DNA of 64,000 nucleotides from a virus. Each line of letters begins with the position of its first letter. Within the stretch, counting starts at the first letter, position 1. Both the position numbers and the translations under genes were made by a program. Under the pieces are notes generated by a model. That model saw only the letters and a list, made by a program, of their open reading frames with translations. It had not been told where the DNA came from and made no database searches. Where the stretch lies: IMG/VR virus record IMGVR_UViG_3300021594_000960, positions 1-64,000 of that record, one strand, 5' to 3'. Shown one piece after another: positions 35,816-53,346 of the stretch.

Positions 35816-36130
35816 TTATTCTGTTTCTTCTGAAATTATGTCTCCATATTGAGACGCGGCTTTTGGATTTCTTTCCATAAAAATCTGATATGCAATTTGA
35901 TATCTTCCAAGCTCGACTTGGCAAGGAAAGTTTTCTGCGTGAAGTGAATCTACTAAGTTTTGTAATGAATCTATTGTTTGAGATTTTGCAATATCTCCAC
36001 CACCCAAAACTTCAATAGGTGGTTTTTCACTCAAACTTTTATACTGTTGCATACGAATAAGTGCCCATAACAATACTAAAACTGTTATTGTGAAAGCAAT
36101 TCTTATTTTTTTCTCTGAGTCCATTTTCAT
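35816..36130 (-). CDS. single-TM hypothetical protein
   Basis: 104 aa. Confidence 0.6.
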   Translation of the reverse strand: MKMDSEKKIRIAFTITVLVLLWALIRMQQYKSLSEKPPIEVLGGGDIAKSQTIDSLQNLVDSLHAENFPCQVELGRYQIAYQIFMERNPKAASQYGDIISEETE

Positions 36131-36147
36131 AATTATAGATTGTTTTA

Positions 36148-36636
36148 TTAATAAATGAATGATTTTTGGAAGTCATCCCAAACTTTACTCACAATAACAT
36201 TTTCACCCACCAATGTCGGTGCAAAAGGTTTGTGTCTCATGGACATTCTTGCCTCCTCAGGGGTTCTATCGGCTTTTTTCAGATTACATTTGAAACAAGA
36301 AGTTACAAGGTTGTGCCAATCATTTTTACCACCACGAGACTTTGGGATTACGTGGTCTAAAGTTAGGTGTTTTGATGACCCACAATAAACACACTGATGG
36401 TTATCTCTTTTATAGATTCTATTTCTGTTTGCACGAAGGTTTCTTGTGAAATGTTTGATATATTTCAGTAGTCTGATGATGACTGGACGAACATAGGTTT
36501 TAAATCCAGCAACTATTGGGGAGTCATCTGACTTAACAATTTCAGCCTTTCCTTTATCAACCAAAACAAATCCTCGTCGAATAGTCGTCACATTCAACGG
36601 GGTGTAATCAAAATTCAATACTAATACATCTCCCAT
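36148..36636 (-). CDS. HNH endonuclease (McrA-like)
   Basis: VLVLN...RDNHQCVYCG...LTLDHVIPKSRGG...NLVTSCFKCN.KK. Confidence 0.9.
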   Translation of the reverse strand: MGDVLVLNFDYTPLNVTTIRRGFVLVDKGKAEIVKSDDSPIVAGFKTYVRPVIIRLLKYIKHFTRNLRANRNRIYKRDNHQCVYCGSSKHLTLDHVIPKSRGGKNDWHNLVTSCFKCNLKKADRTPEEARMSMRHKPFAPTLVGENVIVSKVWDDFQKSFIY

Positions 36637-36714
36637 AGGAATTTTTTTGCAAAGATAATTTATTTTATTTAAAAAACAAAAGGGGTCTAATGACCCCTTC
36701 GAATATACAATGCT

Positions 36715-36822
36715 TTAGCAATAGTTTATGGTTCGGGGTATCCTACGTTTCATCACCCAAAGGTTCTCATATGAACTTGAAGTTCCCAAAAGACACGTTA
36801 TTGTATTGTCTAAAATCATCAT
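36715..36822 (-). CDS. 35-aa small ORF (possible leader peptide) followed by a terminator at 36672-36700
   Basis: MMILDNTITCLLGTSSSYENLWVMKRRIPRTINYC after ATATTTAT; AAGGGGTC/GACCCCTT hairpin. Confidence 0.4.
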   Translation of the reverse strand: MMILDNTITCLLGTSSSYENLWVMKRRIPRTINYC

Positions 36823-36889
36823 GAAATAAATATCATAAATTTTTTTCTTAAATCAAACTTTTTTGTAACTTTGTTGAAACAAAAAAATT

Positions 36890-37162
36890 ATGCCAAACAT
36901 AGATTTAGATATAGAAGTATATGAGTTTGTCCGAGCTTGCTCTAAAAGAGACATCAAAGAATTGATTAAAGAGTTGGTAGATGAGGGACATCTTCCCAAA
37001 GACTTGTATTTTAAAAATGGTGAATTAAAAAAAGAAATGAATAGAAAACTCTCAAGTGAAATTGACTTTGAGGAAAAATTAGATAAACTTAAAACGAAAT
37101 ACTTTTCTTTGAATAAAGATGAAGAAGATTCTTTGGAAAAGATATTTAAGAAACATTTATAA
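36890..37162 (+). CDS. hypothetical protein
   Basis: 90 aa; TAACTTTG at 36866-36873. Confidence 0.65.
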   Translation: MPNIDLDIEVYEFVRACSKRDIKELIKELVDEGHLPKDLYFKNGELKKEMNRKLSSEIDFEEKLDKLKTKYFSLNKDEEDSLEKIFKKHL

Positions 37163-37184
37163 ACTGGTATATATTTATAGAAAT

Positions 37185-37280
37185 ATGAAAACTTTGAATC
37201 TAAATACGAGAACAAATGCGACAACACCGAATGGTGATGCAGGTGGATTATGCTTAGGTTCAGAGGCAAGTGGTTGGTAA
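37185..37280 (+). CDS. leader peptide 1 (MKTLNLNTRTNATTPNGDAGGLCLGSEASGW)
   Basis: 31-codon ORF directly before a terminator and the tRNA block; contains anti-terminator segment 37256-37263. Confidence 0.7.
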   Translation: MKTLNLNTRTNATTPNGDAGGLCLGSEASGW

Positions 37281-37336
37281 TTAAAAACAAAGCCAATAAA
37301 AAACCCTGAACCTTGAAAGTTCGGGGTTTTTTTTTT
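37256..37336 (+). promoter_or_regulatory. attenuator 1 (terminator / anti-terminator)
   Basis: terminator AAACCCTGAAC(37301-11)/GTTCGGGGTTT(37319-29) plus T10; AGGTTCAG(37256-63) is complementary to CTGAACCT(37306-13). Confidence 0.7.
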
Positions 37337-37342
37337 GAATAT

Positions 37343-37415
37343 AGAGTAGTTGACCAATAGGTAGGTCCCTTGCTTTGGGAGCAAGTGTGTGCAGGTTCGA
37401 CCCCTGTCTACTCTA
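37343..37415 (+). tRNA. tRNA-Pro(UGG)
   Basis: AGAGTAG/CTACTCT acceptor; CTTGC-TTTGGGA-GCAAG; GGTTCGA T-loop. Confidence 0.9.
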
Positions 37416-37429
37416 CTTAATTTTAAAAA

Positions 37430-37514
37430 TGCTTCGTTGCCGTAGTGGCCGAACGGTCCAGACTGTTAATCTGGTGTGTAAAAACCATCGTAGGTTCGAA
37501 TCCTACCGAAGCAG
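37430..37514 (+). tRNA. tRNA-Asn(GUU) with long variable region
   Basis: TGCTTCG/CGAAGCA acceptor; CCAGA-CTGTTAA-TCTGG; 15-nt variable region. Confidence 0.85.
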
Positions 37515-37561
37515 CTTTTTTTGAACTCAACAATACTTATAATTAACAACATTTGTTAATC

Positions 37562-38101
37562 ATGAGTAAGTATTGCGAAAAAATTTTAGAATTGAGGAAA
37601 AATGGAATGACGTACAAAGAAATTTCCAATGAATTGAATTGTGCGTTATCCACAGTCTCTTATCATTGTAAACTTCATAAATTGGGGGGCTCAGATGGTA
37701 GGTTGACCGAAGAAGAAAAAATGAGACTACAGAAACTTTATGACCAATTTGGTTCAATAAAAAAAGTATCTGAAATCACCAAAAATTCTTCGGAAACAAT
37801 TCTCAAGTATGTGAAAACAAAAAGGAAGAATAAAAAATTAACCGGTTCTGAATCTGTAATTTTATGGAGAAAAAGAACAAAATTGAAATTGATAGAGTAC
37901 AAGGGAGGAAAATGTGAGATTTGTGGTTATGATAGATGTGTGAGAGCTTTACAGTTTCATCATAAAAATCCTGAAACAAAAGATTTTTCTATTTCAGGAA
38001 AAAGTCATAGTTTTGTTAAACTGAAATCGGAAGTTGATAAATGTATATTAGTTTGCTCAAATTGCCATTCAGAAATACATGACGGAATGATTGAAATTTA
38101 G
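37562..38101 (+). CDS. HTH plus HNH endonuclease (homing-endonuclease-like) within the tRNA array
   Basis: N-terminal HTH (GMTYKEISNEL..ALSTVSYH); YKGGKCEICGY...LQFHH...KCILVCSNCHSEIH. Confidence 0.85.
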   Translation: MSKYCEKILELRKNGMTYKEISNELNCALSTVSYHCKLHKLGGSDGRLTEEEKMRLQKLYDQFGSIKKVSEITKNSSETILKYVKTKRKNKKLTGSESVILWRKRTKLKLIEYKGGKCEICGYDRCVRALQFHHKNPETKDFSISGKSHSFVKLKSEVDKCILVCSNCHSEIHDGMIEI

Positions 38102-38171
38102 GTCTTATAGTTAATCGGTATAATATCGGCTTGTCGCGCCGAGGTGCGGGGTTCGATTCCCCGTGGGACCG
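38101..38171 (+). tRNA. tRNA-Asp(GUC)
   Basis: GGTCTTA/TGGGACC; TCGGC-TTGTCGC-GCCGA. Confidence 0.9.
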
Positions 38172-38224
38172 CTGATAGGGTTTGTAGGTTGTAAAACACA
38201 TTATTGTGTACCCGTATTCAAATT

Positions 38225-38297
38225 GCCTCCTTAGCTCAGCAGGTAGAGCAACTGATTTGTAATCAGTAGGTCGTTGGTTCGATTCCGACAGGAGGCT
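38225..38297 (+). tRNA. tRNA-Thr(UGU)
   Basis: GCCTCCT/AGGAGGC; ACTGA-TTTGTAA-TCAGT. Confidence 0.95.
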
Positions 38298-38312
38298 CTA
38301 AAATTTTAATTT

Positions 38313-38546
38313 ATGCAAGTTTTTTGGACTTATTATTTGATTTGTTTTGCCTATTGTCTTTTCATGTCTGTTAGAAGATGGAATAGAGATGCAATGGCTG
38401 GTGGTCTTGGTATCTCACCTGGTTTGGATACTTTGGGACTTTTAATTATGTGTTGGATTTTAGCTCCTGTGGATATATTTCTCACATGGGTAAGAGTGTA
38501 TAAAGAAGCTGAAGAAGCAAGACGAAATAATACAAAAGTATTCTAA
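38313..38546 (+). CDS. small membrane protein
   Basis: two hydrophobic segments. Confidence 0.6.
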   Translation: MQVFWTYYLICFAYCLFMSVRRWNRDAMAGGLGISPGLDTLGLLIMCWILAPVDIFLTWVRVYKEAEEARRNNTKVF

Positions 38547-39148
38547 TGACGTACTCGGACGAATTGAAAGTTTGTTGGTATACACCACAAAGAACCGCCA
38601 CAAGGACAACACATGTTCTACTCAATGCCATGGGTTTTGTGGGTTTAGGAGCGCACTTTTTTAATTTTCCAGAATCAAAAAAAGATTATTTTTTAATTTC
38701 TAATATTAGAAATCCGTACACGAGAGTTGTTTCTTTGTTTTCTTTGTATTCGATTCATAAAAATGATTTCAATTTGAATTTTGAAAAATGGTGTGAATAT
38801 GCCCTAACAGATAAAAAGTTTGACGGTGATTATCAACTTAGGTATGAGAAAAAAATATTAAGTTTGAATAAAAAATTCGATAAGTTTATAAGAGTAGAAA
38901 AATTGGACGAAGATTTAAAATCTTTAGGTTTTATCAATTTTGAGGAACCAAAAATTCAAGATATTTGGAAAAATAACATCATGAATAATAGGTACACATA
39001 TGAATTCAAAAATATTGAAAATACCACAAGGACACATTGGTCTGATTTCTACACAGAAAAACTAGCTGACTTCGTTTACGAAAACTTAAAGGAACAATTT
39101 GATTTATTTGGTTACGAAAGAAACTCTTGGAAAAATGGCACATCCTAA
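38546..39148 (+). CDS. sulfotransferase family 2-like protein
   Basis: PQRTATRT (5'-PSB-like), IRNPYTRVVS (3'-PB), FDLFGY. Confidence 0.7.
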   Translation: MTYSDELKVCWYTPQRTATRTTHVLLNAMGFVGLGAHFFNFPESKKDYFLISNIRNPYTRVVSLFSLYSIHKNDFNLNFEKWCEYALTDKKFDGDYQLRYEKKILSLNKKFDKFIRVEKLDEDLKSLGFINFEEPKIQDIWKNNIMNNRYTYEFKNIENTTRTHWSDFYTEKLADFVYENLKEQFDLFGYERNSWKNGTS

Positions 39149-39488
39149 TTTACATGCAAAAAGTTCGGCAAAGAAGTTTGGAGGTAAACCCGAAGATTAT
39201 ATTCATCTACATGAATGGTTAGATGAAACCAAAGGTTGGTTTGGTGATTCTTTACATCGTATGTTTAGACACCATTCAGAAGGTATTTTCGAAATGGAAA
39301 AAAGGTTTGGAAAAGAGTTCAAAAACAGCGATGGTAAAACGGTTTATACTAGGTATGTTGGAGAACAACATGTGAAGGAGGATTGTAATAATTATATCCC
39401 ATCAGCCAAAGAATGGGTAAATAATATAACAAGTAACACACGACCAAGTTGGATGATTAAAACAATAAAATTAGAGTTTGAAGACTGA
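39135..39488 (+). CDS. DUF6915-like protein
   Basis: MAHPNLHAKSSAKKFGG...HRMFRHHSEGIF...GEQHVKED. Confidence 0.7.
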   Translation: MAHPNLHAKSSAKKFGGKPEDYIHLHEWLDETKGWFGDSLHRMFRHHSEGIFEMEKRFGKEFKNSDGKTVYTRYVGEQHVKEDCNNYIPSAKEWVNNITSNTRPSWMIKTIKLEFED

Positions 39489-39501
39489 TATTTATAACAT
39501 T

Positions 39502-40212
39502 ATGAGCAAAATACTAACATCAGAAGAAAAAAAATACTTACAGAGAATTTGTAGATACTTGGGTTCATTAGGAATGAACCATGGTAGTATTGATTTCGAA
39601 ATGGAATATGGTGAATTTGATACTAATGACTATAATTGGAACCGTATTACTCATTTCTCTAACAATTATACTGCGGAAATTCCTGACGGATTAAAAGAAA
39701 TCTGTAAAAAACTGCTCAAGTATGTTGAAGAAAACGATTTAATTAATAATCCAGATGTCGAAAATTTAAACTGGGAACGAATTGAAATCGATGTTGATTG
39801 TGACGAGTCAACAATCTCTGTTGTTCATGATTATAATTACTTCGAAGCTAGTGATACTGAGTCAGTCACAAGAAGTTTGGAAGAAGATGGTGACGATGAA
39901 AGCTTAATGGAAGTGTTTGATGTTTTGGAAAATGATGATGAAATTGATGAAAGAGTTCTAAGAATTGATTATAACGGTAGTGGTGATAGCGGATACTTAG
40001 AAGACGCCTTTGATAATATAGGGGTCGATGTGCCAGCACAAGTTCAAGATTACTGTTATGGTATTTTAGAAAGTAATTTTGGTGGTTGGGAAATTAACGA
40101 AGGCTCACAAGGATATTTTGAAATTGATTTAGATAGAAAAGAAATTACTCTCTATCACACATCCAATCTTGATGAAACAGGAAGAGATACTGTTTTTGAA
40201 GAAGACTTCTAA
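39502..40212 (+). CDS. acidic protein (DUF6878-like C-terminus)
   Basis: YNGSGDSG...GGWEINEGSQG. Confidence 0.6.
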   Translation: MSKILTSEEKKYLQRICRYLGSLGMNHGSIDFEMEYGEFDTNDYNWNRITHFSNNYTAEIPDGLKEICKKLLKYVEENDLINNPDVENLNWERIEIDVDCDESTISVVHDYNYFEASDTESVTRSLEEDGDDESLMEVFDVLENDDEIDERVLRIDYNGSGDSGYLEDAFDNIGVDVPAQVQDYCYGILESNFGGWEINEGSQGYFEIDLDRKEITLYHTSNLDETGRDTVFEEDF

Positions 40213-40254
40213 ATTATTTGTTTTTTTAATCCAAATCCCTTATTTTTGTATTAT

Positions 40255-40341
40255 ACCTTGGTGGCGAAATCGGTATACGCGCAAGACTTAAAATCTTGTG
40301 GACAGAAAATGTCCGTGTGGGTTCAAGTCCCACCTGAGGTA
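40255..40341 (+). tRNA. tRNA-Leu(UAA)
   Basis: ACCTTGG/CTGAGGT; CAAGA-CTTAAAA-TCTTG; long variable arm; TATTTTTG at 40241-48. Confidence 0.9.
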
Positions 40342-40417
40342 GGCGTAACGGTAGCCGCGTTGGTCTTAGGAACCAATGACTTCGGTCGTGAGAGTTCGAG
40401 TCTCTCTTGGGGTACCA
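40334..40417 (+). tRNA. tRNA-Leu(UAG) lacking its own 5' acceptor strand (fused to the preceding tRNA)
   Basis: TTGGT-CTTAGGA-ACCAA, GAGAG-TTCGAGT-CTCTC, TTGGGGT-A-CCA; the 5' strand position is occupied by the 3' end of tRNA-Leu(UAA). Confidence 0.7.
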
Positions 40418-40426
40418 ATAGAACAT

Positions 40427-41140
40427 ATGTATATTCAAAGTCCATTAGTCCCAACGGGTGTTAATAACATTTATCATTTAGCACCAATCCCTGTATTCAT
40501 GAAAGTCTTTAATGACCATGAATTACATGATGAAGTTTTTCAATTAGGTTTAGATGTCCTGAGTCCCGCTCAGAAAAAAATGGGTCAAGAACTACCTGAG
40601 GTCTATGATGCTCAGAGACAAGAAAAATATGAAGTAAATTATAACCGTCAGGATATGTGGGTTGAACCAACTGAGTACAACCCCATCGGTAGTCGATTTT
40701 GGACCCCGCCAAACGATTTTCTCGATAGACCTGATACTTGTGTACAAATTATAAAAGACAGGTGTAAAAACGGTTATATGGAGTTATTAGACTCCTTAAA
40801 TTTTGTACACAAAAGAAACCCAAAAATAACTGAGTCTTGGATTCAATATTACAACCCCACAGAAGGTAGAGGTCATAACCAACATAATCATTGTCGTTGG
40901 TCTCCTGATGAAGAAACTGTATTGAATTTTGTGGGTGGTTATTATCTTTCAGACGGTAACCCAATAAAAGACCATCCTTACAGTGGTGTTTTTACGTTTC
41001 ACATCAGAGGTATGTCTTATTTCATTCGACCGAAAAAAGGTATGCTCATGATTTGGCCTTACGATATTGTACATTCTGTGAAACCATTTTATGGTGAAAC
41101 ACAGAGATGTGTTATCAATTTCAATATTCAGGACATATAA
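40427..41140 (+). CDS. 2OG-Fe(II) oxygenase-like protein
   Basis: ESWIQ...HNQHNH...PKKGMLMIWP...HSV.P...RCVINFN. Confidence 0.75.
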   Translation: MYIQSPLVPTGVNNIYHLAPIPVFMKVFNDHELHDEVFQLGLDVLSPAQKKMGQELPEVYDAQRQEKYEVNYNRQDMWVEPTEYNPIGSRFWTPPNDFLDRPDTCVQIIKDRCKNGYMELLDSLNFVHKRNPKITESWIQYYNPTEGRGHNQHNHCRWSPDEETVLNFVGGYYLSDGNPIKDHPYSGVFTFHIRGMSYFIRPKKGMLMIWPYDIVHSVKPFYGETQRCVINFNIQDI

Positions 41141-41144
41141 ATTA

Positions 41145-41174
41145 TTTGTTTTTAAAAAACTTTTACTATATTTG
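41145..41174 (+). promoter_or_regulatory. Bacteroidota-type housekeeping promoter (-33 TTTG / -7 TAnnTTTG)
   Basis: TTTG 41145-48 and TATATTTG 41167-74; similar -7 boxes at 36866, 40241 and 55089. Confidence 0.7.
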
Positions 41175-41191
41175 TAGTAATTATAATAACA

Positions 41192-41272
41192 ATGAGAACA
41201 CAGGTGCAACATATTGTCTACAGTCATCAACAAGAGATTTGTTGGATTAAGACACGCCCTGTAGTCTCGTGA
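41192..41272 (+). CDS. leader peptide 2 (MRTQVQHIVYSHQQEICWIKTRPVVS)
   Basis: 26-codon ORF between promoter and terminator; anti-terminator segment 41259-41269. Confidence 0.75.
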   Translation: MRTQVQHIVYSHQQEICWIKTRPVVS

Positions 41273-41366
41273 GAAGCCTATAATTCCTGAAGAGTTATAT
41301 ATAAGACCTCGAACTACAGAAATGAAGTTCGGGGTTTTTTCTTTTTGGGACTTTTGGTTCTTTGAA
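41259..41366 (+). promoter_or_regulatory. attenuator 2 plus boxA-like element
   Basis: terminator ACCTCGAACT(41306-15)/AGTTCGGGGT(41326-35) plus T-tract; CTGTAGT(C)TCG pairs with CGAACTACAG(41310-19); GTTCTTTGAA at 41357-66. Confidence 0.7.
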
Positions 41367-41476
41367 GTATTGCTGAACATGTTTTGAGTCAATATGGTTT
41401 ATTGATTTCTAAGGGAGGGTATGAAAGAGAAGTGAATTGGGATAGGTTAGAAGAATTAAAAAAAGAAATTAAATAA
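41366..41476 (+). pseudogene. start-less 3' gene fragment (SIAEHVLSQYG...LEELKKEIK)
   Basis: protein-like frame bounded upstream by an in-frame TGA with no ATG. Confidence 0.4.
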
Positions 41477-41490
41477 AGTAAGATTATTAG

Positions 41491-41565
41491 GGTCAGTTGG
41501 TCGAGTGGTTTAGGCGGTAGTCTGCAAAACTATTTACACAGGTTCGATTCCTGTACTGACCTCCA
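41491..41565 (+). tRNA. tRNA-Cys(GCA)
   Basis: GGTCAGT/ACTGACC-T-CCA; GTAGT-CTGCAAA-ACTAT. Confidence 0.93.
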
Positions 41566-41568
41566 CAA

Positions 41569-41641
41569 TGGAATGTAGCTCAGCTGGTAGAGCACTATTC
41601 TGATACGATAGTTGTCGGCGGTTCGAGCCCGCCCATTCCAA
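41569..41641 (+). tRNA. tRNA-Ile(GAU)
   Basis: TGGAATG/CATTCCA; CTATT-CTGATAC-GATAG. Confidence 0.9.
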
Positions 41642-41655
41642 CAAAATAAAATGTT

Positions 41656-42180
41656 ATGAGACGTAAAATCATTTTTATCGATGTAGATGGACCACTGGCA
41701 TGGGGAACATGGGGTGACGGTAGAGTTACGCTCAACGAAGCTTCTAAGACCTTCACAATCCCTTATCCATGGGTTCAGGAGGACTGCCAAGCATTACAAA
41801 AAATTTGTAACGAAACAAATGCGTCTTTGGTTGTAAGTTCAGATTGGAGAAAACACTTTAGTATAATTCAACTCAAAAGAATTTTTCAATACTATGGTGT
41901 AACCGCACCGATTGTAGACATTACAACTCATCAGTACCTTTGGAACAAAATGAGTAGACCATCTATAGAATGGGAGAGAGCCGCAGAAATCACAAAGTGG
42001 GTTAAGGACAACAAAATCACCAATTGGATTTCAATTGATGATATGAAACTTGATGAACAATACAAGTGGTTGAAACCAAGAATTCCAATGTGGAGACACG
42101 TACAGGTAGATGGTGATTGGGGTCACGGCGGAAGACTAAGAGACAAAATTGATGAATGTATAAAAAAATTAGAACGATGA
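41656..42180 (+). CDS. HAD-superfamily phosphatase (Swiss-army-knife RNA-repair type)
   Basis: IIFIDVDG, LVVSSDWR, R..EI..W, WISIDD. Confidence 0.8.
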   Translation: MRRKIIFIDVDGPLAWGTWGDGRVTLNEASKTFTIPYPWVQEDCQALQKICNETNASLVVSSDWRKHFSIIQLKRIFQYYGVTAPIVDITTHQYLWNKMSRPSIEWERAAEITKWVKDNKITNWISIDDMKLDEQYKWLKPRIPMWRHVQVDGDWGHGGRLRDKIDECIKKLER

Positions 42181-42464
42181 AAAAAAGATTATCATTAGAA
42201 CAGAAGAGAGAAAAAATGGTCGTTGATATGATTAATAAAATGTTCGAAATCGCAGGACATTCAGTAACATACGATGATGTTAAAGACCGTAAAGATGATT
42301 GGTATACTCAATGGACTATGACTGTCGAACAAAACGATGAGTGGAAAGATTGGGGTCAGAAATACCTCATCAAAGAACTCAAAATGAATAAGAAGTATGC
42401 TGAAACTCAAATGGGGATGATTTCCTTAATGTGGGGATTAAAGTTTAGTAATTTCAATTTATAA
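42177..42464 (+). CDS. hypothetical phage protein
   Basis: 95 aa; ends LMWGLKF. Confidence 0.65.
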   Translation: MKKRLSLEQKREKMVVDMINKMFEIAGHSVTYDDVKDRKDDWYTQWTMTVEQNDEWKDWGQKYLIKELKMNKKYAETQMGMISLMWGLKFSNFNL

Positions 42465-42480
42465 AGCGTAAATTTGTGAT

Positions 42481-43035
42481 ATGAAAATCAATAGAGCGGA
42501 TTTGTTATGGTTCCTGAGTAACATCCGAAGAAAACAAGAAGGAAAAGAACTTACTGACGAAATGCTAGTTGACCATATGGCACATTATATGGAGGCAAAT
42601 CCGAGATGTGTTGATATGCAAGGTGTTAGTACACCAGGTAGGTTCAGTTATTCTACTGTTGGATATGGTGTATTCAGTTTGATGGGTGAGAAGTATAGAA
42701 TGGGTAGGATTGAAATATTCGACAGAGAAAGTGATAGCGGATATCAAGTGTCTGAGGGAATCTATACAATGCCTTATGAAGCGGCAAGTCAATTTGAAGA
42801 TTTTATCGAATCTTTGGAAACTGACCTACCAATAAACATCGAAATAGGTTCTCATGGATGGTGTGAAGAGGAATGCGCAAAATCTTTGGGTTTTGAAAAC
42901 ACTGAAGCTATGAGAGACCCTGAAAACGTAAAAAAGTATCAAAGAATGAAAAACGATGAATATGCACGTGAACAAGGGTATGAAGATTGGGACGACCTAT
43001 TAGCTAAAAGTAAGTGGACAAAAAAACAAGGATAA
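42481..43035 (+). CDS. hypothetical protein
   Basis: 184 aa. Confidence 0.65.
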   Translation: MKINRADLLWFLSNIRRKQEGKELTDEMLVDHMAHYMEANPRCVDMQGVSTPGRFSYSTVGYGVFSLMGEKYRMGRIEIFDRESDSGYQVSEGIYTMPYEAASQFEDFIESLETDLPINIEIGSHGWCEEECAKSLGFENTEAMRDPENVKKYQRMKNDEYAREQGYEDWDDLLAKSKWTKKQG

Positions 43036-43448
43036 TGAAAGTTGTAATCGTAAGTGGATATTTCAATCCTGTCCATAAAGGACATATTGAATACTTTATC
43101 AAATCAAAAGAACATGGAGACAAACTCTATGTGATTGTGAATAACGATTTTCAACGTGAGTTGAAAGGAAGTAAAAAGTTCCAAGATGAGGACGAGAGAT
43201 TGGTAATTATCGATAGTTTAAAGATGGTAGATAAAACTATACTATCTATCGATAAAGACAGAACGGTTCGTGAGACGTTAAGAATGATTGCCTCTGAGGT
43301 TGAAGAAAACGTAGAGTTGTTTTTTGCAAACGGAGGAGACCAAAATAACGACACAATACCTGAAAAACCAATCTGTGATGAATTGGGTATCAAACTGGTT
43401 GACGGTTTGGGAGACAAGATTCAGTCCTCATCTTGGTTATTAAAATAA
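43035..43448 (+). CDS. cytidylyltransferase-family (HxGH) nucleotidyltransferase
   Basis: VSGYFNPVHKGH, FANGGD, KIQSSSWL. Confidence 0.88.
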   Translation: MKVVIVSGYFNPVHKGHIEYFIKSKEHGDKLYVIVNNDFQRELKGSKKFQDEDERLVIIDSLKMVDKTILSIDKDRTVRETLRMIASEVEENVELFFANGGDQNNDTIPEKPICDELGIKLVDGLGDKIQSSSWLLK

Positions 43449-43454
43449 TAAAAA

Positions 43455-43527
43455 GCGTGCGTAGCTCAATTGGTAGAGTACTAGTCTCCAAAACTAGGAG
43501 TTTCAGGTTCGAGTCCTGACGTGCGTG
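43455..43527 (+). tRNA. tRNA-Trp(CCA)
   Basis: GCGTGCG/CGTGCGT; CTAGT-CTCCAAA-ACTAG. Confidence 0.92.
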
Positions 43528-43529
43528 CA

Positions 43530-43619
43530 AAATGTAAACTTCAGTACCCACACAGTGGTGAGACGGGCTAAGTTAGATACGATTCCTCGGAGCTGGGAGT
43601 AGAATGCTGAAGAACATTT
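43530..43619 (+). ncRNA. candidate multibranch structured RNA
   Basis: closing helices AAATGT/ACATTT and CTTCAGTA/TGCTGAAG with internal hairpins. Confidence 0.45.
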
Positions 43620-43620
43620 A

Positions 43621-43755
43621 TAGGTTGATTGGGGAATGGTGAAACTAATGACTCGAGAGTGTATTTCGGTCAGTTTCATCGGAGTTGGGAGAAATACACC
43701 TGAGTAATGCCAATCGTAAAAGGAGTTGTCCACGCAACCATCTTCTCCTTTCCTT
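43621..43755 (+). ncRNA. candidate double-pseudoknot structured RNA
   Basis: GATTGG/CCAATC, GGTGAAACT/AGTTTCATC, GTGTATTTC/GAAATACAC, AAAGGAG/CTCCTTT, GGTTG/CAACC. Confidence 0.55.
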
Positions 43756-43760
43756 AATTT

Positions 43761-43842
43761 GGGAGTATCGCCTAGTGGCAATGGCAGAAGACTGTAAATC
43801 TTCCCTCTTTCGAGTTCGTTGGTTCGAGTCCAGCTACTCCCA
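43761..43842 (+). tRNA. tRNA-Tyr(GUA)
   Basis: GGGAGTA/TACTCCC; GAAGA-CTGTAAA-TCTTC; long variable arm. Confidence 0.93.
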
Positions 43843-43844
43843 CA

Positions 43845-43906
43845 AAATGATTGAAGTCCTGAGTGGTATCGGGAGGAAGTAACACAACCAAGTGTAACAA
43901 TCATTT
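43845..43906 (+). ncRNA. candidate three-way-junction RNA with kissing loops
   Basis: AAATGATTG/CAATCATTT closing stem; TCCTGA/TCGGGA and ACAC/GTGT hairpins with loops containing TGGT and ACCA. Confidence 0.5.
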
Positions 43907-43908
43907 AT

Positions 43909-43982
43909 GGACCCCTAGCTCAGTAGGTTAGAGCAAATGACTCATAATCATTAGGTCCACGGTTCGAGCCCGTGGGGGTCCA
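43909..43982 (+). tRNA. tRNA with CAU anticodon, probably Ile2 (lysidine type)
   Basis: GGACCCC/GGGGTCC; AATGA-CTCATAA-TCATT; body resembles Ile2 more than fMet. Confidence 0.85.
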
Positions 43983-43984
43983 CA

Positions 43985-44059
43985 AGACAGACACACGCTT
44001 CCCATGGTGTTAAAGTACAAGGATAATGAAGAGAATAATACGTCTCCTTAGGTCTGTCT
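43985..44059 (+). ncRNA. candidate structured RNA
   Basis: AGACAGAC/GTCTGTCT closing stem with internal ACAC/GTGT and AAGGA/TCCTT helices. Confidence 0.45.
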
Positions 44060-44064
44060 GAAAT

Positions 44065-44135
44065 TGTCGTATGGTGTAACGGTAACACAACAGATTTTGG
44101 TTCTGTTTTTCAAGGTTCGAATCCTTGTGCGACAA
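44065..44135 (+). tRNA. tRNA-Gln(UUG)
   Basis: TGTCGTA/TGCGACA; ACAGA-TTTTGGT-TCTGT. Confidence 0.92.
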
Positions 44136-44140
44136 CATAT

Positions 44141-44214
44141 GGTGGACGTAGCTTAGTTGGTAGAGCACTAGCTTGTGGCGCTAGTTGTCGTGGGTTCGAA
44201 TCCCACCGTTCACA
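44141..44214 (+). tRNA. tRNA-His(GUG)
   Basis: G-1 plus GTGGACG/CGTTCAC; CTAGC-TTGTGGC-GCTAG. Confidence 0.9.
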
Positions 44215-44219
44215 CACGA

Positions 44220-44304
44220 GGAGAGTTGCCTGAGTGGTTAAAGGAGCGGTTTACTAAACCGTGGTCGGGTAACTGACCCGCTGGTTCGAATCCAGCACTC
44301 TCCG
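44220..44304 (+). tRNA. tRNA-Ser with ACU anticodon
   Basis: GGAGAGT/ACTCTCC-G; GCGGT-TTACTAA-ACCGT; long variable arm. Confidence 0.88.
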
Positions 44305-44417
44305 CACTTTTTTTAACCTACTAGTTGACGATTTAGAAAACTTGGCGGCTGTTGTTGTAGACACTACTGCTGTTAAGGTAGAAGAAGTTAAATAATATTA
44401 CTTTTTCTTACAAAACT

Positions 44418-44445
44418 AAAAACCCATCTTTCGATGGGTTTTTTT
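44418..44445. terminator. bidirectional terminator closing the tRNA operon
   Basis: AAAAACCCATC-TTTC-GATGGGTTTTT. Confidence 0.8.
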
Positions 44446-45763
44446 ATTTTAATAATCTTTTAATTTTCTCGATATTCTCATTAAGTTTTTCATCTTCTTC
44501 ATTTCTTTCTTTTTTGAAAAACTTTGCAACTTTTTTAAAAGGAGCTTTAATTGCGTCTATAACGAATGGGTCGGTTTGTTTTTTCTCACCTGTTTCTGCC
44601 CATCTTTTTTGAGTCATTTCCCCTGTTTTTTTATCGTATCTATTTTTGAATATTTCAAAAGGTGCTAAAATTAATGATGCCATAGCAGGGTCAGTATAAG
44701 ACCTTGTGTTAGTTTGGGTTACATTTTCTACTTCATCATCTCCTCTGTATGTTGGTTTTTTTCTTTTTGTTTTTTTCTCAGAATAACTTCTCTCAAATTC
44801 TTTAGTATTCAAATTTTCTCTATGATATGAGCGATTCAACAACAAAACTTCAGCAATATCATTTTTATCCATAGAACCTATCACTTGTCCTTCAGACACC
44901 GATTCACCGTCTCTAACTCTTGGCTTTGTAACTCCACAATATTGTAAAAAATACCCCATCTCAACAGATTCGATTGTAATTTGATTTTTACAACCTGATA
45001 TTTTTTTCATGTTATTAATCACCCCATCAACAGGACTTTTTATTACTGAATTTGATGAACCAGGTATTGATATTGTTCCATATCTTCCTGATACATTACT
45101 TCCGAAAGATTCATTCAATCCGATTAATTTACCAAGACCCAAAGCAGCTTTGAACAATTCAGGGTCCGAGTTATAACTACTACTACCCCCACCGTAAGGC
45201 TTAGAACCTTTTTTTTCTTTATCAGAAGTATTTGTCTCGGTTGAAGAATCAGTTTGTGTTGTAGAATCTGAACTTGAGTTCTGAATAGGGTCTACACTAT
45301 AGTTTCCACCTGAGTATTTTTCTACAGTCCATTTTATCAATTCCGTGATAGTGTTTTTGTCTCCACTTATATCTACACCAGCACCTACAGGAGGCTCTCC
45401 TTCAAAGGTTTTGTAGTGAAAACTGTGTTTTGTGTGAACATCATCAACTTTACCATTTGGGTCTCTTTTAGCATAAGGGTTTTCTGTTGTTCTCAAACCC
45501 ATTTCGTGGGCTTTATCAATAACGTCCATAGCAACATCTCGATTTGTGAAACCGATGTGTAAGTGGTTATCATGGTTATTCCAAGTTATACCATCTACTT
45601 TTCTACCACCATCAAAACCAAAACCTACGGTTCCGCCTTTTTTTGTTGCGGGGTTATAAACTAATTCGTCGATACCTGAGATGTCGGCTTCAGAAAATAC
45701 CATTTTCTTATTCTCAAGAATGATATCGTAAATTCTGTTTATGTTTTTTAGTTCTCTACTCAT
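44444..45763 (-). CDS. putative cell-wall-acting protein: HxxHxH domain plus degenerate M23-like domain
   Basis: HDNHLHIGF, H...SFHY, IKSPVDGVI...VRDGESVSEGQVIG. Confidence 0.55.
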   Translation of the reverse strand: MSRELKNINRIYDIILENKKMVFSEADISGIDELVYNPATKKGGTVGFGFDGGRKVDGITWNNHDNHLHIGFTNRDVAMDVIDKAHEMGLRTTENPYAKRDPNGKVDDVHTKHSFHYKTFEGEPPVGAGVDISGDKNTITELIKWTVEKYSGGNYSVDPIQNSSSDSTTQTDSSTETNTSDKEKKGSKPYGGGSSSYNSDPELFKAALGLGKLIGLNESFGSNVSGRYGTISIPGSSNSVIKSPVDGVINNMKKISGCKNQITIESVEMGYFLQYCGVTKPRVRDGESVSEGQVIGSMDKNDIAEVLLLNRSYHRENLNTKEFERSYSEKKTKRKKPTYRGDDEVENVTQTNTRSYTDPAMASLILAPFEIFKNRYDKKTGEMTQKRWAETGEKKQTDPFVIDAIKAPFKKVAKFFKKERNEEDEKLNENIEKIKRLLK

Positions 45764-45811
45764 TAGTTATAAATATTGATGGTGGAATAAAAAAAACCGA
45801 GAATATCTCGG

Positions 45812-46141
45812 TTATCTGTTTGAACTATAATTCAATACTTTTTTACCCGTAGTTTCAACTTCTTTTTTTTCAACTATAGGTTTTGGTTCGATAGGAAGTA
45901 CTACTTTTTTCTTTTTTTCAACTTCTTTTACTAATCCGAATTTAACCCATTTATACCAAACTCTTTCATGAATATAATATTGAATTGGTTTATACAACAA
46001 TTCAACTACACCAAATGCTGCACCAACTTTCACACTTCCTGATGCCCACCACATAGCGAGAAAACCTATACCTGTACTTACTACTCTGTAACTTATTGTT
46101 TTTGCTAAGTGTCTTTTGTACGAAACTTTAATTTGACTCAT
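45812..46141 (-). CDS. DUF2061-like membrane protein
   Basis: RHLAKTISYR...YYIHERVW. Confidence 0.75.
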   Translation of the reverse strand: MSQIKVSYKRHLAKTISYRVVSTGIGFLAMWWASGSVKVGAAFGVVELLYKPIQYYIHERVWYKWVKFGLVKEVEKKKKVVLPIEPKPIVEKKEVETTGKKVLNYSSNR

Positions 46142-46523
46142 ATTTGTCTATCTTAGGAGGACCATCGAGGGTTTTAAATCCCATGTTCCTTTCTAAATTT
46201 ATTCCAACAGCCCTATCAAGTTCAGGTTGCTCGGGGTCTTTATCATTAAGAATAACTCTCGTTCCCCTACCACAATCCATAACAAGTTGATGATATTGGA
46301 CTCCAATTTTTTTCAACTCATCAATGGTGTAGTCTCTGTAAGATTCTGGACGTGCTGTAGTTATAATTATCACAGCACCAGATTTGTGCTGTTCGTTGAT
46401 GTAATCAACAACTTCTTTGATTGGAGTCAGAATTGCTGTTGCCAACTCATTAAATTTCCTGTATACAACCAATGTTCCATCAATATCGACGAAAAAGGTA
46501 GGGTTTTTTGTTACTTTGCTCAT
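46128..46523 (-). CDS. HAD-superfamily phosphatase (PNK-phosphatase-like)
   Basis: FVDIDGTL, IITTAR, LND. Confidence 0.75.
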   Translation of the reverse strand: MSKVTKNPTFFVDIDGTLVVYRKFNELATAILTPIKEVVDYINEQHKSGAVIIITTARPESYRDYTIDELKKIGVQYHQLVMDCGRGTRVILNDKDPEQPELDRAVGINLERNMGFKTLDGPPKIDKYESN

Positions 46524-46527
46524 ATTG

Positions 46528-46600
46528 AGCGGAAGACCAGGTTCGAACTGGCTACCCCCGACTTGGAAGGACGGTGCTCTACCAAATGAGCTACTTCCGC
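46528..46600 (-). tRNA. tRNA-Gly(UCC)
   Basis: GCGGAAG/CTTCCGC-T; CCGTC-CTTCCAA-GTCGG (one U-U mismatch). Confidence 0.9.
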
Positions 46601-46605
46601 TTAGG

Positions 46606-46794
46606 TTATTCGGGTTCTTTTTCCATCAGAATCCACAACATAAGATAGGTGAAAATAACTGGAAGTGGACTCCATATTGCAGCGAAACATAAAATTTTGA
46701 CCAATAGTGGTTCAATTTCAAAATAATTGGCAAGACCTGTACATACGCCAGCCAATGTTCCATTTTTACTTCTGTATAATTTTTTCTTTTCCAT
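46606..46794 (-). CDS. PspC-domain membrane protein
   Basis: KLYRSK...LAGVCTGLANYF.I...YLMLWILM. Confidence 0.85.
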   Translation of the reverse strand: MEKKKLYRSKNGTLAGVCTGLANYFEIEPLLVKILCFAAIWSPLPVIFTYLMLWILMEKEPE

Positions 46795-46799
46795 AGTTC

Positions 46800-46890
46800 A
46801 AAAAAAAGTGGTCAGGGACTGATGGGATGCTATACCTCGGAGTCGACTTCTTTTCACCGCTGCAGTCAGTTACATCAGTATGACCACCAC
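46800..46890 (-). ncRNA. candidate rod/hairpin small RNA
   Basis: GTGGTCA/TGACCAC and ACTGATG/CATCAGT helices followed by U-tract. Confidence 0.5.
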
Positions 46891-47027
46891 TCGTTAAAAT
46901 GTAACATTATCGCCAGGTTCCCATTCTTCTTCTTCCTTGGGAATATTTGGGTCAAGTTCTACCTCAACATTCAAAAAAAACGACATGAATTTTAACGTTT
47001 TATTATTTTTTCAAATATAATACAATT

Positions 47028-53000: not shown

Positions 53001-53346
53001 CCTGTAGGGACTTGATATCTTCAATCAAAATAACCTCTAAAGTAGTTGTAATACCCAAAGAGGTGTTGATATCAGATAGTTCCTTCATTTTGTAACCCAC
53101 GAAAGATACATGGACTACGTAAGGACCACCAGGACGAACAGCGGGAATGGTAAAATTACCAACTTTGTTTGTGGATGCACGATATTCAGAACCCGTAGGT
53201 TGATGAACAACGTGAACCGATGCTCCCACTAAAGCATCTCCTTTTTCATTTTTCACAACACCAGACAGGGCAGATGTAGTTATTTGCCCGAAAGATGTTA
53301 GAGTCACTAACAAGGATAAAAGCGACGCGAAAATTGCTTTTTTCAT
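50059..53346 (-). CDS. TonB-dependent outer-membrane receptor (Oar-like)
   Basis: signal peptide, carboxypeptidase-regulatory-like N-domain, plug (NNFTIDG, PFDIRQSGFVGAGINAVTRSG), barrel ending QLGLRYIF. Confidence 0.92.
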   Translation of the reverse strand: MKKAIFASLLSLLVTLTSFGQITTSALSGVVKNEKGDALVGASVHVVHQPTGSEYRASTNKVGNFTIPAVRPGGPYVVHVSFVGYKMKELSDINTSLGITTTLEVILIEDIKSLQEVVVSFNRNNTFSIDRTGASQQFGRRELTSVPITGARTIDGITKYNPMGDGRSFGGADSRLNNFTIDGSQFNNGFGLGSSAQAGGRTGSSAISLDAIDQLQINVAPFDIRQSGFVGAGINAVTRSGSNKVEGSYYQFNRDNQRYVGNNAKGTTVTASKFEESIRGFRLGAPIIKNKLFIFGNYESLEKTEPGTTWISQGSPLAGSQISRVLYSDMKTLSDFMRTNFNYETGPWENYNNANTSEKFLVRLDWNINDKHKLTGRYVHHNSSAEINISNSQSAGAGNRTTQFNAMSFKNSGYIIQDNTRSSVLELNSKFSNTLHNNLIVGYDVQIENRGYLSQMFPTIDIMNGTATYASVGFDPFTPGNKLDYNTFHVTNNLTKFLDKHTIVAGVNFEKYRSNNLFYPASNGVYIFNSLNDFYTAANQSIANGGRPSTLAPARFQLRYSALPGGIEPMQVLKTSRLDLYAQDEYQHNENLKITGGLRVAVIGFENTALENKAVTAMTFAGGEKFNTGVLPKTQVLFEPRIGFNYNHKGKNDLQVRGGSGVFTGRPPYVFVSNQVGNNGVLTGFIDVSGAAAANYGFTANPNQYFIPQTPTLPSTFDLAFTDPNYKFPQVWKTNLAADKKLPLGFIGTVELMYNRFLNAVHYYNSNLDAPVGAFNGPDKRAVFARNDAGVRVNDNVSMGAVLTNREGAYNTSATFELKYPAQKGLWGSLAWTTSLSKDYMSAGSIASGSWQSARAINGNNDLPLAFADNWIPNRVVGLVGYKLENGAKKGAGATTITLGYVGQQGNPFSYFVAGDLNGDRVNNNELIFVPNKATDIRFASFTSGGVTFTEAQQQAAFDAYIDQDKYLSTRRGQYAERNASVIPMLHRFDISIQQDFFVDIKGQRNTFQLRLDILNFGNMVNSDWGVSQRATNPAILSYSSTNTAGEPVYRLSTQPVLNANGTTTVGLIRDTYQWNTSVFDVWQAQLGLRYIFGR

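What the first reader, a model, noticed from the sequence alone, without database searches (positions are those of the whole stretch)
41145..41366. Attenuator 2: promoter, leader, anti-terminator, terminator and boxA-like site in order
Seen: TTTG-N18-TATATTTG promoter, then leader codons CAG, CAA, CAT, ATT, TAC, AGT, CAT, CAA, CAA, ATT, TGT, TGG, ATT. The Ser codon in this core is AGT, the one read by the unusual downstream tRNA-Ser(ACU). CTGTAGT(C)TCG (41259-69) can form 10 bp with CGAACTACAG (41310-19), which excludes the terminator. GTTCTTTGAA (41357-66) resembles the rRNA-operon boxA. Inference: stalling in codons 4-19 frees the anti-terminator, and Nus-type antitermination then supports the long untranslated transcript. 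The unmatched Val, Glu, Arg and Lys codons could correspond to tRNAs lost at the apparent junction near 41366.
Basis: partly seen in the sequence, partly recalled or inferred. Interest (0 to 1): 0.85.

Follow-up and report, generated by a model that had tools for sequence, protein, structure and literature searches.

The report
Codon-checklist attenuator gating phage tRNA genes
An uncultured lake phage of Bacteroidota places a tiny translated test gene and a switchable transcription stop in front of its tRNA genes, spelled in the codons those tRNAs read, so it probably makes the tRNAs only when ribosomes read those codons slowly.

Summary

In the leader, 13 of the 16 codons 4-19 call for amino acids whose tRNAs lie downstream. 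None of 200,000 random windows matched that together with its set coverage.

The design recurs in 47 distinct units from IMG/VR relatives. Leader composition follows each unit's own tRNA set: the true pairing is the best of 362,880 permutations.

Folding of the nascent RNA gives the attenuator logic: the anti-terminator forms only with a ribosome at codons 4-19.

Relatives carry Glu, Val, Phe and Lys tRNAs where the window has filler, so the "lost tRNA" prediction holds.

The boxA-like motif, in its family form, is identical to a 17-mer found in 16S-23S spacers of Bacteroidota.

Weak points: there are no expression data and no compensatory changes. The window's own 2:3 helix is not significant alone. 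Many relatives may have a second promoter after the terminator.

Earlier reports of this scan describe the same design on other DNA. Nine literature searches found no description in print.

The parts
41145..41174 (+). Promoter-like site of Bacteroidota type: TTTG, 18 nt, TATATTTG
   Evidence: Read. The strict form TTTG-N17-21-TAnnTTTG stands before the leader in 11 of 47 distinct units, including all close att2 relatives; a relaxed form stands in 29 of 47.
41192..41272 (+). Leader ORF 2, 26 codons plus TGA: MRTQVQHIVYSHQQEICWIKTRPVVS
   Evidence: Homologous leaders occur in L059, L030, L001, L005, L008 and others.
41201..41248 (+). Sensing core, codons 4-19 (QVQHIVYSHQQEICWI)
   Evidence: 13 of 16 residues are in the downstream tRNA set. 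A ribosome placed here leaves the anti-terminator free.
41192..41207 (+). Segment 1, which pairs with segment 2 and includes the start codon
   Evidence: MFE structure. The 1:2 duplex has an energy of -17.7 kcal/mol.
41255..41270 (+). Segment 2, whose anti-terminator strand is 41259-69
41279..41299 (+). Small hairpin inside the loop of the 2:3 helix
   Evidence: It is kept in L030 and L059.
41303..41346 (+). Intrinsic terminator: arms 41303-15 and 41326-38, T tract 41335-46. Segment 3 is 41310-19
   Evidence: The 3:4 duplex has an energy of -17.9 kcal/mol.
41356..41373 (+). boxA-like motif GGTTCTTTGAAGTATTGC
   Evidence: The exact 8-mer GTTCTTTG lies in the terminator-to-tRNA spacer of 27 of 47 units. 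The family form of the motif occurs in Bacteroidota rRNA spacers.
41373..41461 (+). Window-specific filler where relatives carry tRNA-Glu (and Val, Phe, Lys); probably a deletion scar
   Evidence: No similarity to any of the 108 relative loci. L059 has tRNA-Glu plus about 460 nt at this place.
41491..41642 (+). tRNA-Cys(GCA) and tRNA-Ile(GAU)
41656..43448 (+). Four ORFs inside the unit: a HAD_SAK_2 RNA-repair-type HAD protein, two of unknown family, and a cytidylyltransferase-like protein
43455..44305 (+). tRNA-Trp, Tyr, Met(CAU), Gln, His and Ser(ACU)
44418..44443 (+). Two-way terminator that probably ends the unit
37185..37336 (+). Sister unit, attenuator 1: leader MKTLNLNTRTNATTPNGDAGGLCLGSEASGW and terminator 37298-37332, 11 nt before tRNA-Pro

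Best explanation
This is a ribosome-mediated (leader-peptide) transcription attenuator that gates a phage tRNA operon.

How it most likely works:
1. Transcription starts at the TTTG-N18-TATATTTG promoter, and a ribosome translates the 26-codon leader while the polymerase moves on.
2. Codons 4-19 are a checklist of the amino acids whose tRNAs lie downstream (Gln, His, Ile, Tyr, Ser, Cys, Trp; in relatives also Glu, Val, Phe, Lys, Arg, Met).
3. If all are decoded fast, the ribosome reaches codons 20-27 and covers segment 2 (41255-70). Segment 3 then pairs with segment 4 and the terminator (41303-46) stops transcription.
4. If any listed codon is read slowly, the ribosome lags and segment 2 pairs with segment 3 (41259-69 with 41310-19). 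The terminator cannot form, and the polymerase reads on into tRNA-Cys, tRNA-Ile, four genes (one of RNA-repair type) and six more tRNAs.
5. The new tRNAs speed decoding and close the switch again, which is negative feedback on tRNA supply.
6. With no ribosome, segments 1 and 2 pair and termination follows.
7. The boxA-like site after the terminator probably loads host Nus factors on read-through transcripts.

What is shown: the sequence parts, their conservation, the codon-to-tRNA match and the predicted alternative folds.
What is inferred: translation of the leader, the switching itself, the feedback and the Nus loading.
For: (1) Codon match in the window. 13 of 16 core codons are in the downstream set, and 0 of 200,000 random windows equal both the count and the coverage. 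Leaders 1 and 2 share no core residue with each other's tRNA set.

(2) Recurrence.
- The terminator pattern carries no tRNA or leader information, yet it hit 78 IMG/VR loci.
- 71 of the 75 newly fetched loci have + strand tRNAs downstream. The other 3 (L008, L012, L019) are Leu/Arg units already seen.
- A wider terminator pattern gave 167 units in all loci and the window. Of these, 131 have a tRNA within 400 nt and a leader ORF picked by a fixed rule, and they give 49 distinct leaders. Two were dropped as artefacts of the rule, leaving 47.

(3) Co-variation.
- For 9 leader families, the F1 score between leader residues 2-24 and the unit's own tRNA set is the best of all 362,880 pairings. 8 of 9 leaders fit their own set best.
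- Examples: MKNMNLHIAVIKPMAVCQWYPR lists 13 of 13 downstream amino acids. MRTTLLHTLLLDRQGLLRRLMP precedes Leu(UAA)-Arg(UCU)-Leu(UAG).

(4) Codon-box level. Where only one of two codon boxes has a downstream tRNA, 74 codons lie in that box and 18 in the other. For Arg AGR the count is 22 to 0, and for CGN 16 to 2.

(5) Folding.
- In the window's nascent RNA, the 2:3 helix has 10 pairs with the A site at codons 4-19, 7 at codon 20, 0 from codon 24, and 2 without a ribosome.
- All 47 units lose the anti-terminator once the ribosome passes about codon 21-27. L059 does the same.

(6) GTTC[AG]G, a copy of the start of the terminator's 3' arm, lies inside the leader in 42 of 47 units, mostly at codons 24-30. 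It occurs in all three reading frames, so it is kept as RNA and not as peptide.

(7) Substitutions between close leaders are 39 synonymous to 40 non-synonymous in codons 2-22, against 15 to 46 in the tail (Fisher p = 0.003).

(8) In attenuator 1, tRNA-Pro starts 11 nt after the T tract, which leaves no room for a promoter.

(9) boxA: and PMC5725501.
Against: - There are no transcript ends, ribosome footprints or reporter data.
- At equilibrium the terminator survives in every ribosome position tested (15 of 15 pairs). Only the kinetic model, with the nascent RNA cut before the 3' arm, switches.
- The window's 2:3 helix is no better than 64 of 1000 shuffles.
- In the 14-sequence att2 alignment the helices are 94-98% paired, but only 1 of 26 pairs shows a change on both sides, so covariation says nothing.
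- In 35 of 47 units the anti-terminator also forms without a ribosome, so the 1:2 lock is not general.
- In 29 of 47 units a TAnnTTTG box lies between terminator and first tRNA. This may be a second promoter that bypasses the switch. It is not present in the window's unit.
- The window's core keeps Val, Val and Glu, and codon 20 is Lys, with no matching tRNA on the contig. L030 keeps Ser and Ile codons without such tRNAs in its locus. Leaders therefore do not track recent tRNA loss closely.
- Most sensed codons occur once. Whether one slow codon delays the ribosome enough is unknown.
- The leader families were set by eye, and the counts are not phylogenetically independent.
Confidence: 0.8

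Rival explanations
1. The translated leader does sense decoding speed, but the output is not intrinsic termination at 41303-46. Possible outputs would be RNA processing or stability, Rho action on the untranslated RNA, or occlusion of a downstream promoter.
For: At equilibrium the terminator always wins. A second promoter-like box follows the terminator in 29 of 47 units. A boxA-type site, known elsewhere to counter Rho (abstracts listed), follows the terminator.
Against: A strong hairpin with a T tract is kept in all units, and a copy of its 3' arm is kept in the leader at a fixed distance in 42 of 47. That is the anatomy of a terminator/anti-terminator switch. The nascent-RNA model switches at the edge of the checklist.
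Confidence: 0.08
2. There is no regulation. The terminator merely ends a small gene or the upstream transcript, the tRNAs have their own promoters, and the leader's composition reflects a peptide with another role or shared ancestry.
For: TAnnTTTG boxes lie after the terminator in 29 of 47 units. There is no covariation. The window's 2:3 helix is not significant alone.
Against: The fit between leader and tRNA set is absolute, not only correlated: precision is 0.87-1.0 in 7 of 9 families, and the true pairing is the best of 362,880. It also holds at codon-box level. In attenuator 1 and in family E the tRNA starts 8-11 nt after the T tract, so those tRNAs can only be made by read-through. The tails of the leaders evolve like non-coding RNA.
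Confidence: 0.07
3. The leader RNA binds tRNAs directly, as a T-box does, and is not translated.
For: The element stands before tRNA-related genes and holds the matching codons.
Against: No T-box match or other riboswitch match appeared among the 28 Rfam matches in 36000-47000 at E up to 1. The codons are in one frame from an ATG to a stop in 47 units. There is a synonymous excess in the core. A T-box reads one specifier codon, not 13 to 15.
Confidence: 0.02

Closest known systems
Leader-peptide transcription attenuators of amino-acid operons (trpL, hisL, leuL, thrL and the multivalent ilv leaders; recalled from textbook knowledge)
   Same: A promoter-proximal short ORF, regulatory codons, segments 1 to 4 with alternative 1:2, 2:3 and 3:4 pairing, and an intrinsic terminator before the regulated genes. 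Read-through follows when the ribosome lags.
   Different: The regulated genes are tRNAs, not biosynthetic enzymes, so the product sensed is the product made. The leader lists up to 15 tRNA species, mostly once each, in place of runs of one to three amino acids. The element is in a phage, and the host is a Bacteroidota with no Shine-Dalgarno sequence before the leader.
Rfam Thr_leader (RF00506)
   Same: Attenuator 1 of the window (37177-37335) gives a weak match (33.9 bits, E = 0.0028). It has Thr-rich codons and a terminator.
   Different: The score is below the gathering score of 55. Attenuator 2, the finding itself, gives no leader-family match at all.
rRNA-operon boxA with Nus-factor antitermination (consensus GYTCTTTAANA, PMC5725501, passage read)
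   Same: The family motif GTTCTTTGACA fits 10 of 11 consensus positions, and the window's GTTCTTTGAAG fits 9 of 11. The 17-mer GTTCTTTGAMATRTTGG lies in 16S-23S spacers and before 16S or 23S in 47 of 81 genome matches, mostly Bacteroidota.
   Different: Here it follows an attenuator in a phage tRNA operon. Binding of NusB and NusE was not tested. The window's copy departs from the family 17-mer at two positions.
T-box riboswitches
   Same: They link gene expression to the state of a tRNA through a terminator/anti-terminator choice.
   Different: T-boxes bind uncharged tRNA directly without translation, read one specifier codon and control synthetase or amino-acid genes. No T-box match was found here.

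Membership tests
Leader-peptide (ribosome-mediated) transcription attenuator | A short ORF directly after a promoter and before the regulated genes | tested here: met
   ORF 41192-41272, 18 nt after TATATTTG. A leader ORF was found by a fixed rule in 142 of 167 terminator units.
Leader-peptide (ribosome-mediated) transcription attenuator | The leader is enriched in codons tied to the regulated product | tested here: met
   13 of 16 core codons. The true pairing is the best of 362,880 permutations. Codon boxes count 74 to 18.
Leader-peptide (ribosome-mediated) transcription attenuator | An intrinsic terminator between the leader and the regulated genes | tested here: met
   A hairpin of 13 plus 2 pairs followed by T6CT5.
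Leader-peptide (ribosome-mediated) transcription attenuator | An anti-terminator helix that excludes the terminator and depends on the ribosome's position | tested here: inconclusive
   The nascent-RNA model switches at codon 19/20 and in 47 of 47 units. The equilibrium folds do not switch, the helix alone is matched by 64 of 1000 shuffles, and there is no covariation.
Leader-peptide (ribosome-mediated) transcription attenuator | The leader is translated, and read-through rises when the cognate charged tRNA is short | not testable with these tools
   Indirect evidence only: a synonymous excess in the core. An RNA-library contig crosses the terminator, but it may be DNA.
Leader-peptide (ribosome-mediated) transcription attenuator | The regulated genes are amino-acid biosynthesis or synthetase genes (the classical scope) | tested here: not met
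   The downstream genes are 8 tRNAs and 4 ORFs, none of them biosynthetic.
Rfam Thr_leader RF00506 | A score at or above the gathering score (55 bits) | tested here: not met
   33.9 bits on attenuator 1, and no match on attenuator 2.
T-box riboswitch | A match to the T-box model with its specifier loop and T-box sequence | tested here: not met
   No such match among the 28 matches at E up to 1 in 36000-47000.
boxA / Nus antitermination site | Sequence fits the boxA consensus | tested here: met
   The window fits 9 of 11 and the family motif 10 of 11 positions of GYTCTTTAANA (PMC5725501, passage in section 13).
boxA / Nus antitermination site | The same element stands in the host group's rRNA operons at the leader and spacer positions | tested here: met
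   40 of 81 matches lie within 1000 nt after the 16S 3' end, 5 lie before 23S and 2 before 16S. 34 have no landmark, and 11 of those are near a locus end. The record titles are mostly Bacteroidota.
boxA / Nus antitermination site | Binds NusB and NusE and makes the polymerase resistant to termination | not testable with these tools

The most novel reading that the evidence does not exclude
The checklist leaders are a phage alarm for attacks on the host's tRNA pool. A single 16-20-codon read-out times the ribosome against the polymerase. It therefore detects the loss of any one of up to 15 tRNA species, for example by an anticodon nuclease of a defence system or by phage-induced decay of host tRNA. 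It answers by switching on replacement tRNAs together with RNA-repair genes, with boxA/Nus loading to carry the polymerase through the long operon. This would be the first case of tRNA genes under ribosome-mediated attenuation, and of a sensor that reports on many tRNAs at once.
Probability: 0.35. Interest if true: 0.92.

Novelty: new variant of a known kind. Interest (0 to 1): 0.85.

Why it matters
It has long been asked why phages carry tRNAs and how they control them. Here the control element itself names the tRNAs, and that makes the question testable. The leader predicts which tRNAs are limiting during infection, and swapping codons should re-aim the switch.

The finding extends classical attenuation to RNA genes and to a many-input sensor. 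It gives a direct feedback loop in which the sensed molecule is the product.

It also gives a sequence rule for finding such units in metagenomes: a leader, a copy of the terminator's 3' arm, the terminator, and boxA. The same rule can reveal tRNA loss, as in this window.

Finally, the boxA 17-mer ties these uncultured lake phages to Bacteroidota hosts.

Tried and rejected
- Equilibrium folding with a ribosome footprint never removed the terminator. I kept the kinetic model and say so.
- Covariation on a 14-sequence alignment of att2 leaders: the helices are conserved but nearly invariant, so this is uninformative.
- Cultured phages: megablast of 40376-44400 and blastn of both attenuators found no match in 50,697 phage records, so no isolate or named host is known.
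- A lead recalled from memory, that E. coli tRNA-Phe genes have an attenuator-like leader, was checked at pheV of K-12. No Phe-rich leader or terminator lies before the tRNA, so I dropped it.
- RNA evidence:
  - Only assembled contigs were available.
  - One contig of an RNA library, from a relative about 92% identical, covers about 41215-42515 across the terminator. It may be DNA carry-over, and contigs show no ends, so I draw no conclusion from it.
  - Parts without cover in the RNA runs say nothing.
  - The DNA runs X1 and X3 cover 41248-41491 at ordinary depth, and no joint was listed there. This argues against a chimeric assembly at the junction, but no listed piece spans it.
- Strict promoter motif: it is present in only 11 of 47 units, so promoter conservation is claimed only for the att2 relatives.
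- Tracking of recent tRNA loss by leader codons within a family is poor (WIN, L030). I do not claim it.
- Literature: the nine searches found no description of leader-peptide control of tRNA genes.
  - I read passages of PMC5725501 (sections 8, 12, 13, 15) and one passage of PMC3082878. All other papers were seen as search listings only.
  - Supplementary Table 2 of PMC5725501 lists boxA sequences and could refine the boxA comparison, but supplements are closed.
  - Subscription papers are not in the library, so the statement that this is not in print is limited to these searches.

Full report
WHAT IS THERE. The window is part of a single 73,155-bp virus contig with 34.6% G+C. It carries 15 tRNA genes and a tmRNA. 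Three things point to a Bacteroidota host: a protein with a type IX secretion sorting domain, a SusC-like outer-membrane protein, and promoter-like TTTG-N17-20-TAnnTTTG sites. No cultured phage resembles it. Near-identical DNA is present in 16 freshwater or lake runs from at least 12 studies.

The finding lies between a 2OG-Fe(II) oxygenase-like gene (40376-41140) and tRNA-Cys (41491).
- TTTG 41145-48, 18 nt, then TATATTTG 41167-74.
- A 26-codon ORF, 41192-41272, encoding MRTQVQHIVYSHQQEICWIKTRPVVS.
- CTGTAGTCTCG at 41259-69, which is complementary to CGAACTACAG at 41310-19.
- A terminator hairpin, 41303-15 paired with 41326-38, followed by T6CT5.
- GTTCTTTGAA at 41357-66.

IS IT MORE THAN CHANCE. 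The + strand tRNAs behind the element are Cys, Ile, Trp, Tyr, Met, Gln, His and Ser(ACU). Codons 4-19 of the leader hold 13 of 16 residues from this set and cover 7 of its 8 members. Of 200,000 random 16-codon windows from the contig's ORFs, none reached both values.

The sister element before tRNA-Pro (leader 37185-37280, terminator 37298-37332) holds 13 of 16 residues from its own set (Pro, Asn, Asp, Thr, Leu). Only 7 of 200,000 random windows equal that. Each leader core holds 0 of 16 residues from the other's set. The leader region also folds better than shuffles (z = -4.4).

RELATIVES. A search with the neighbouring oxygenase gene fetched 33 IMG/VR loci. The attenuator 1 terminator pattern, which holds no tRNA or leader information, hit 78 loci. 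In 71 of the 75 newly fetched loci, + strand tRNAs follow within 4 kb. Four loci (L039, L052, L074, L083) have none. The remaining three are Leu/Arg units seen.

With a wider terminator expression I found 167 units. Of these, 131 have a tRNA within 400 nt and a leader ORF chosen by a fixed rule: the ORF whose stop is nearest the terminator, read from its most upstream ATG. This gave 49 distinct leaders. I dropped two as artefacts, one an in-frame upstream extension and one cut by a locus end, which leaves 47.

The leaders are diverse and follow their tRNAs:
- MKNMNLHIAVIKPMAVCQWYPR... stands before Pro, Lys, Cys, Trp, Leu, Val, Tyr, Ala, Gln, Met, His, Arg and Ile.
- MKNTNKNMTRVAKATTKGG... stands before Thr, Lys, Asn, Arg, Val, Ala, Met and Gly.
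- MRTTLLHTLLLDRQGLLRRLMP stands before Leu(UAA), Arg(UCU) and Leu(UAG).

I grouped the leaders into nine families by eye and took the member with the most tRNAs from each. The true leader-to-set pairing then has the highest summed F1 of all 362,880 permutations, and 8 of 9 leaders fit their own set best.

At the level of codon boxes, 74 informative codons lie in the box that has a downstream tRNA and 18 in the sister box. Arg AGR goes with Arg(UCU) 22 to 0, and CGN with Arg(ACG) 16 to 2. These counts are not phylogenetically independent.

Between close leaders, codons 2-22 change synonymously 39 times and non-synonymously 40 times. The tail changes 15 and 46 times (p = 0.003). So the core is read as codons and the tail is kept as RNA.

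THE SWITCH. The minimum-energy fold has a leader hairpin (segments 1:2, which includes the AUG) and the terminator (3:4). I modelled the nascent RNA cut before the terminator's 3' arm, with the ribosome covering 13 nt beyond the first base of its A-site codon. The results were:
- Without a ribosome, 1:2 forms and 2:3 does not (2 stray pairs).
- With the A site at codons 4-19, the 10-pair 2:3 helix forms.
- At codon 20 it drops to 7 pairs.
- From codon 24 to the stop it drops to 0.

Duplex energies are -17.7 (1:2), -12.9 (2:3) and -17.9 kcal/mol (3:4). The closest relative, L059 (leader MNTTMRHIVYSQQQEICWIKTRPVVS), behaves the same way.

In all 47 units the anti-terminator is lost once the ribosome passes about codon 21-27. 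In 42 of 47 the leader holds GTTC[AG]G, a copy of the start of the terminator's 3' arm. It mostly lies at codons 24-30 and occurs in all three frames.

RESULTS AGAINST, OR WEAK.
- With the full-length RNA at equilibrium the terminator is kept at every ribosome position, so the case rests on kinetics, as it does for classical attenuators.
- The window's 2:3 helix alone is matched by 64 of 1000 shuffled leaders. For attenuator 1 the figure is 9 of 1000.
- The att2 alignment shows 94-98% pairing, but only one pair has a change on both sides.
- In 35 of 47 units 2:3 also forms without a ribosome.
- A TAnnTTTG box lies between terminator and first tRNA in 29 of 47 units and may be a second, unregulated promoter. 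The window's two units lack it, and tRNA-Pro starts 11 nt after the T tract.
- No expression evidence could be had. One RNA-library contig crosses the terminator, but it may be DNA.

LOST tRNAs. The window's core keeps Val (twice) and Glu, and codon 20 is Lys, without cognate tRNAs anywhere on the contig. L059 has tRNA-Glu directly after the boxA-like site, followed by Cys-Ile as in the window. More distant relatives have Glu, Val, Phe and Lys there, and Arg(ACG) further down. The stretch 41373-41461 resembles none of the 108 relative loci. The prediction therefore holds. Phe was lost as well, and the window's leader has Tyr where relatives have Phe.

boxA. The 8-mer GTTCTTTG lies in the spacer of 27 of 47 units, in six leader families. 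Its consensus is GTTCTTTGAMATRTTGG, a few bases before the first tRNA. That 17-mer hit more than 120 stretches in bacterial genomes. Of the 80 loci listed, most are Bacteroidota by their titles.

Of the 81 matches, 40 lie within 1000 nt after the 16S 3' end, 5 before 23S and 2 before 16S. The other 34 had no landmark. These are the canonical boxA places. The motif fits 10 of 11 positions of the published consensus GYTCTTTAANA (PMC5725501, passage read).

The rRNA-operon location, and the units that have the motif but no promoter box, speak for boxA. Nus binding remains untested. The window's copy differs from the 17-mer at two positions.

COMPARISON AND NOVELTY. The anatomy is that of a leader-peptide attenuator. 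Two things differ: the genes controlled are tRNAs, and the leader is a checklist of many amino acids. It does not reach the threshold of any Rfam leader family: Thr_leader scores 33.9 bits against a gathering score of 55 on attenuator 1, and attenuator 2 has no match. There is no T-box match.

Nine literature searches found no description of this. A recalled E. coli pheV lead failed on inspection. Earlier reports of this scan describe the same design on other phage DNA, so it is not new to the scan, but I could not find it in print.

I rate it a new variant of a known kind. My confidence in the attenuator reading is about 0.8, and in a working boxA about 0.5.

Noticed in passing
44220-44305: This is a tRNA-Ser with anticodon ACU. 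The closest relative, L059, has Ser(GCU) at the same place in the cluster. The window's copy therefore looks like a G34-to-A change of a GCU tRNA.
   Followed up: partly
40254-40417: ARAGORN's tRNA-Leu(UAA) and tRNA-Leu(UAG) overlap by 11 nt. Rfam matches the second only in part (27.9 bits, model positions 9-63). Relatives have Leu-Arg(UCU)-Leu here. This is probably a deletion that removed Arg(UCU) and the 5' part of Leu(UAG).
   Followed up: partly
L008:1258-1392 and the same unit in L010, L014, L015, L017, L020: A third attenuator stands before Leu(UAA)-Arg(UCU)-Leu(UAG), with leader MRTTLLHTLLLDRQGLLRRLMP and TTA, CTT/CTA and AGA codons. The window lacks it and has a plain TTTG-N20-TATTTTTG site at 40217 instead.
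   Followed up: partly
41656-42180 and 43014-43448: Two genes sit inside the tRNA operon: one for a HAD domain of the RNA-repair 'Swiss Army Knife' type (Pfam HAD_SAK_2, E = 9e-20) and one for a cytidylyltransferase-like protein. This would fit tRNA repair or maturation.
   Followed up: no
41413-41436: A Shine-Dalgarno-like AAGGGAGGG is followed by a mini-ORF ATG AAA GAG AAG TGA (Met-Lys-Glu-Lys) inside the window-specific filler. It is odd for a Bacteroidota phage, and its codons are those of the lost Lys and Glu tRNAs. It may be chance.
   Followed up: no
53569-53961 (- strand): The phage encodes a tmRNA with the tag peptide AEEATVVA.
   Followed up: no
43529-43760 and 43844-43908: Long spacers lie between tRNA-Trp, Tyr and Met, which first-reader notes describe as structured RNAs. 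RNA-library contigs cover them. I did not study them.
   Followed up: no
41645-44219: Contigs of two DNA runs from different studies join 41645/46 to 44218/19, skipping about 2572 nt (table 5). The flanks are only 30-31 letters and lie at tRNA ends. This may be a strain variant without the four ORFs and five tRNAs, or a repeat artefact.
   Followed up: no
10582-12489 and 50059-53346 (- strand): The virus contig encodes a protein with a type IX secretion sorting tail and a 1095-aa SusC-like outer-membrane barrel. These are unusual cargo and a clue to the host.
   Followed up: partly
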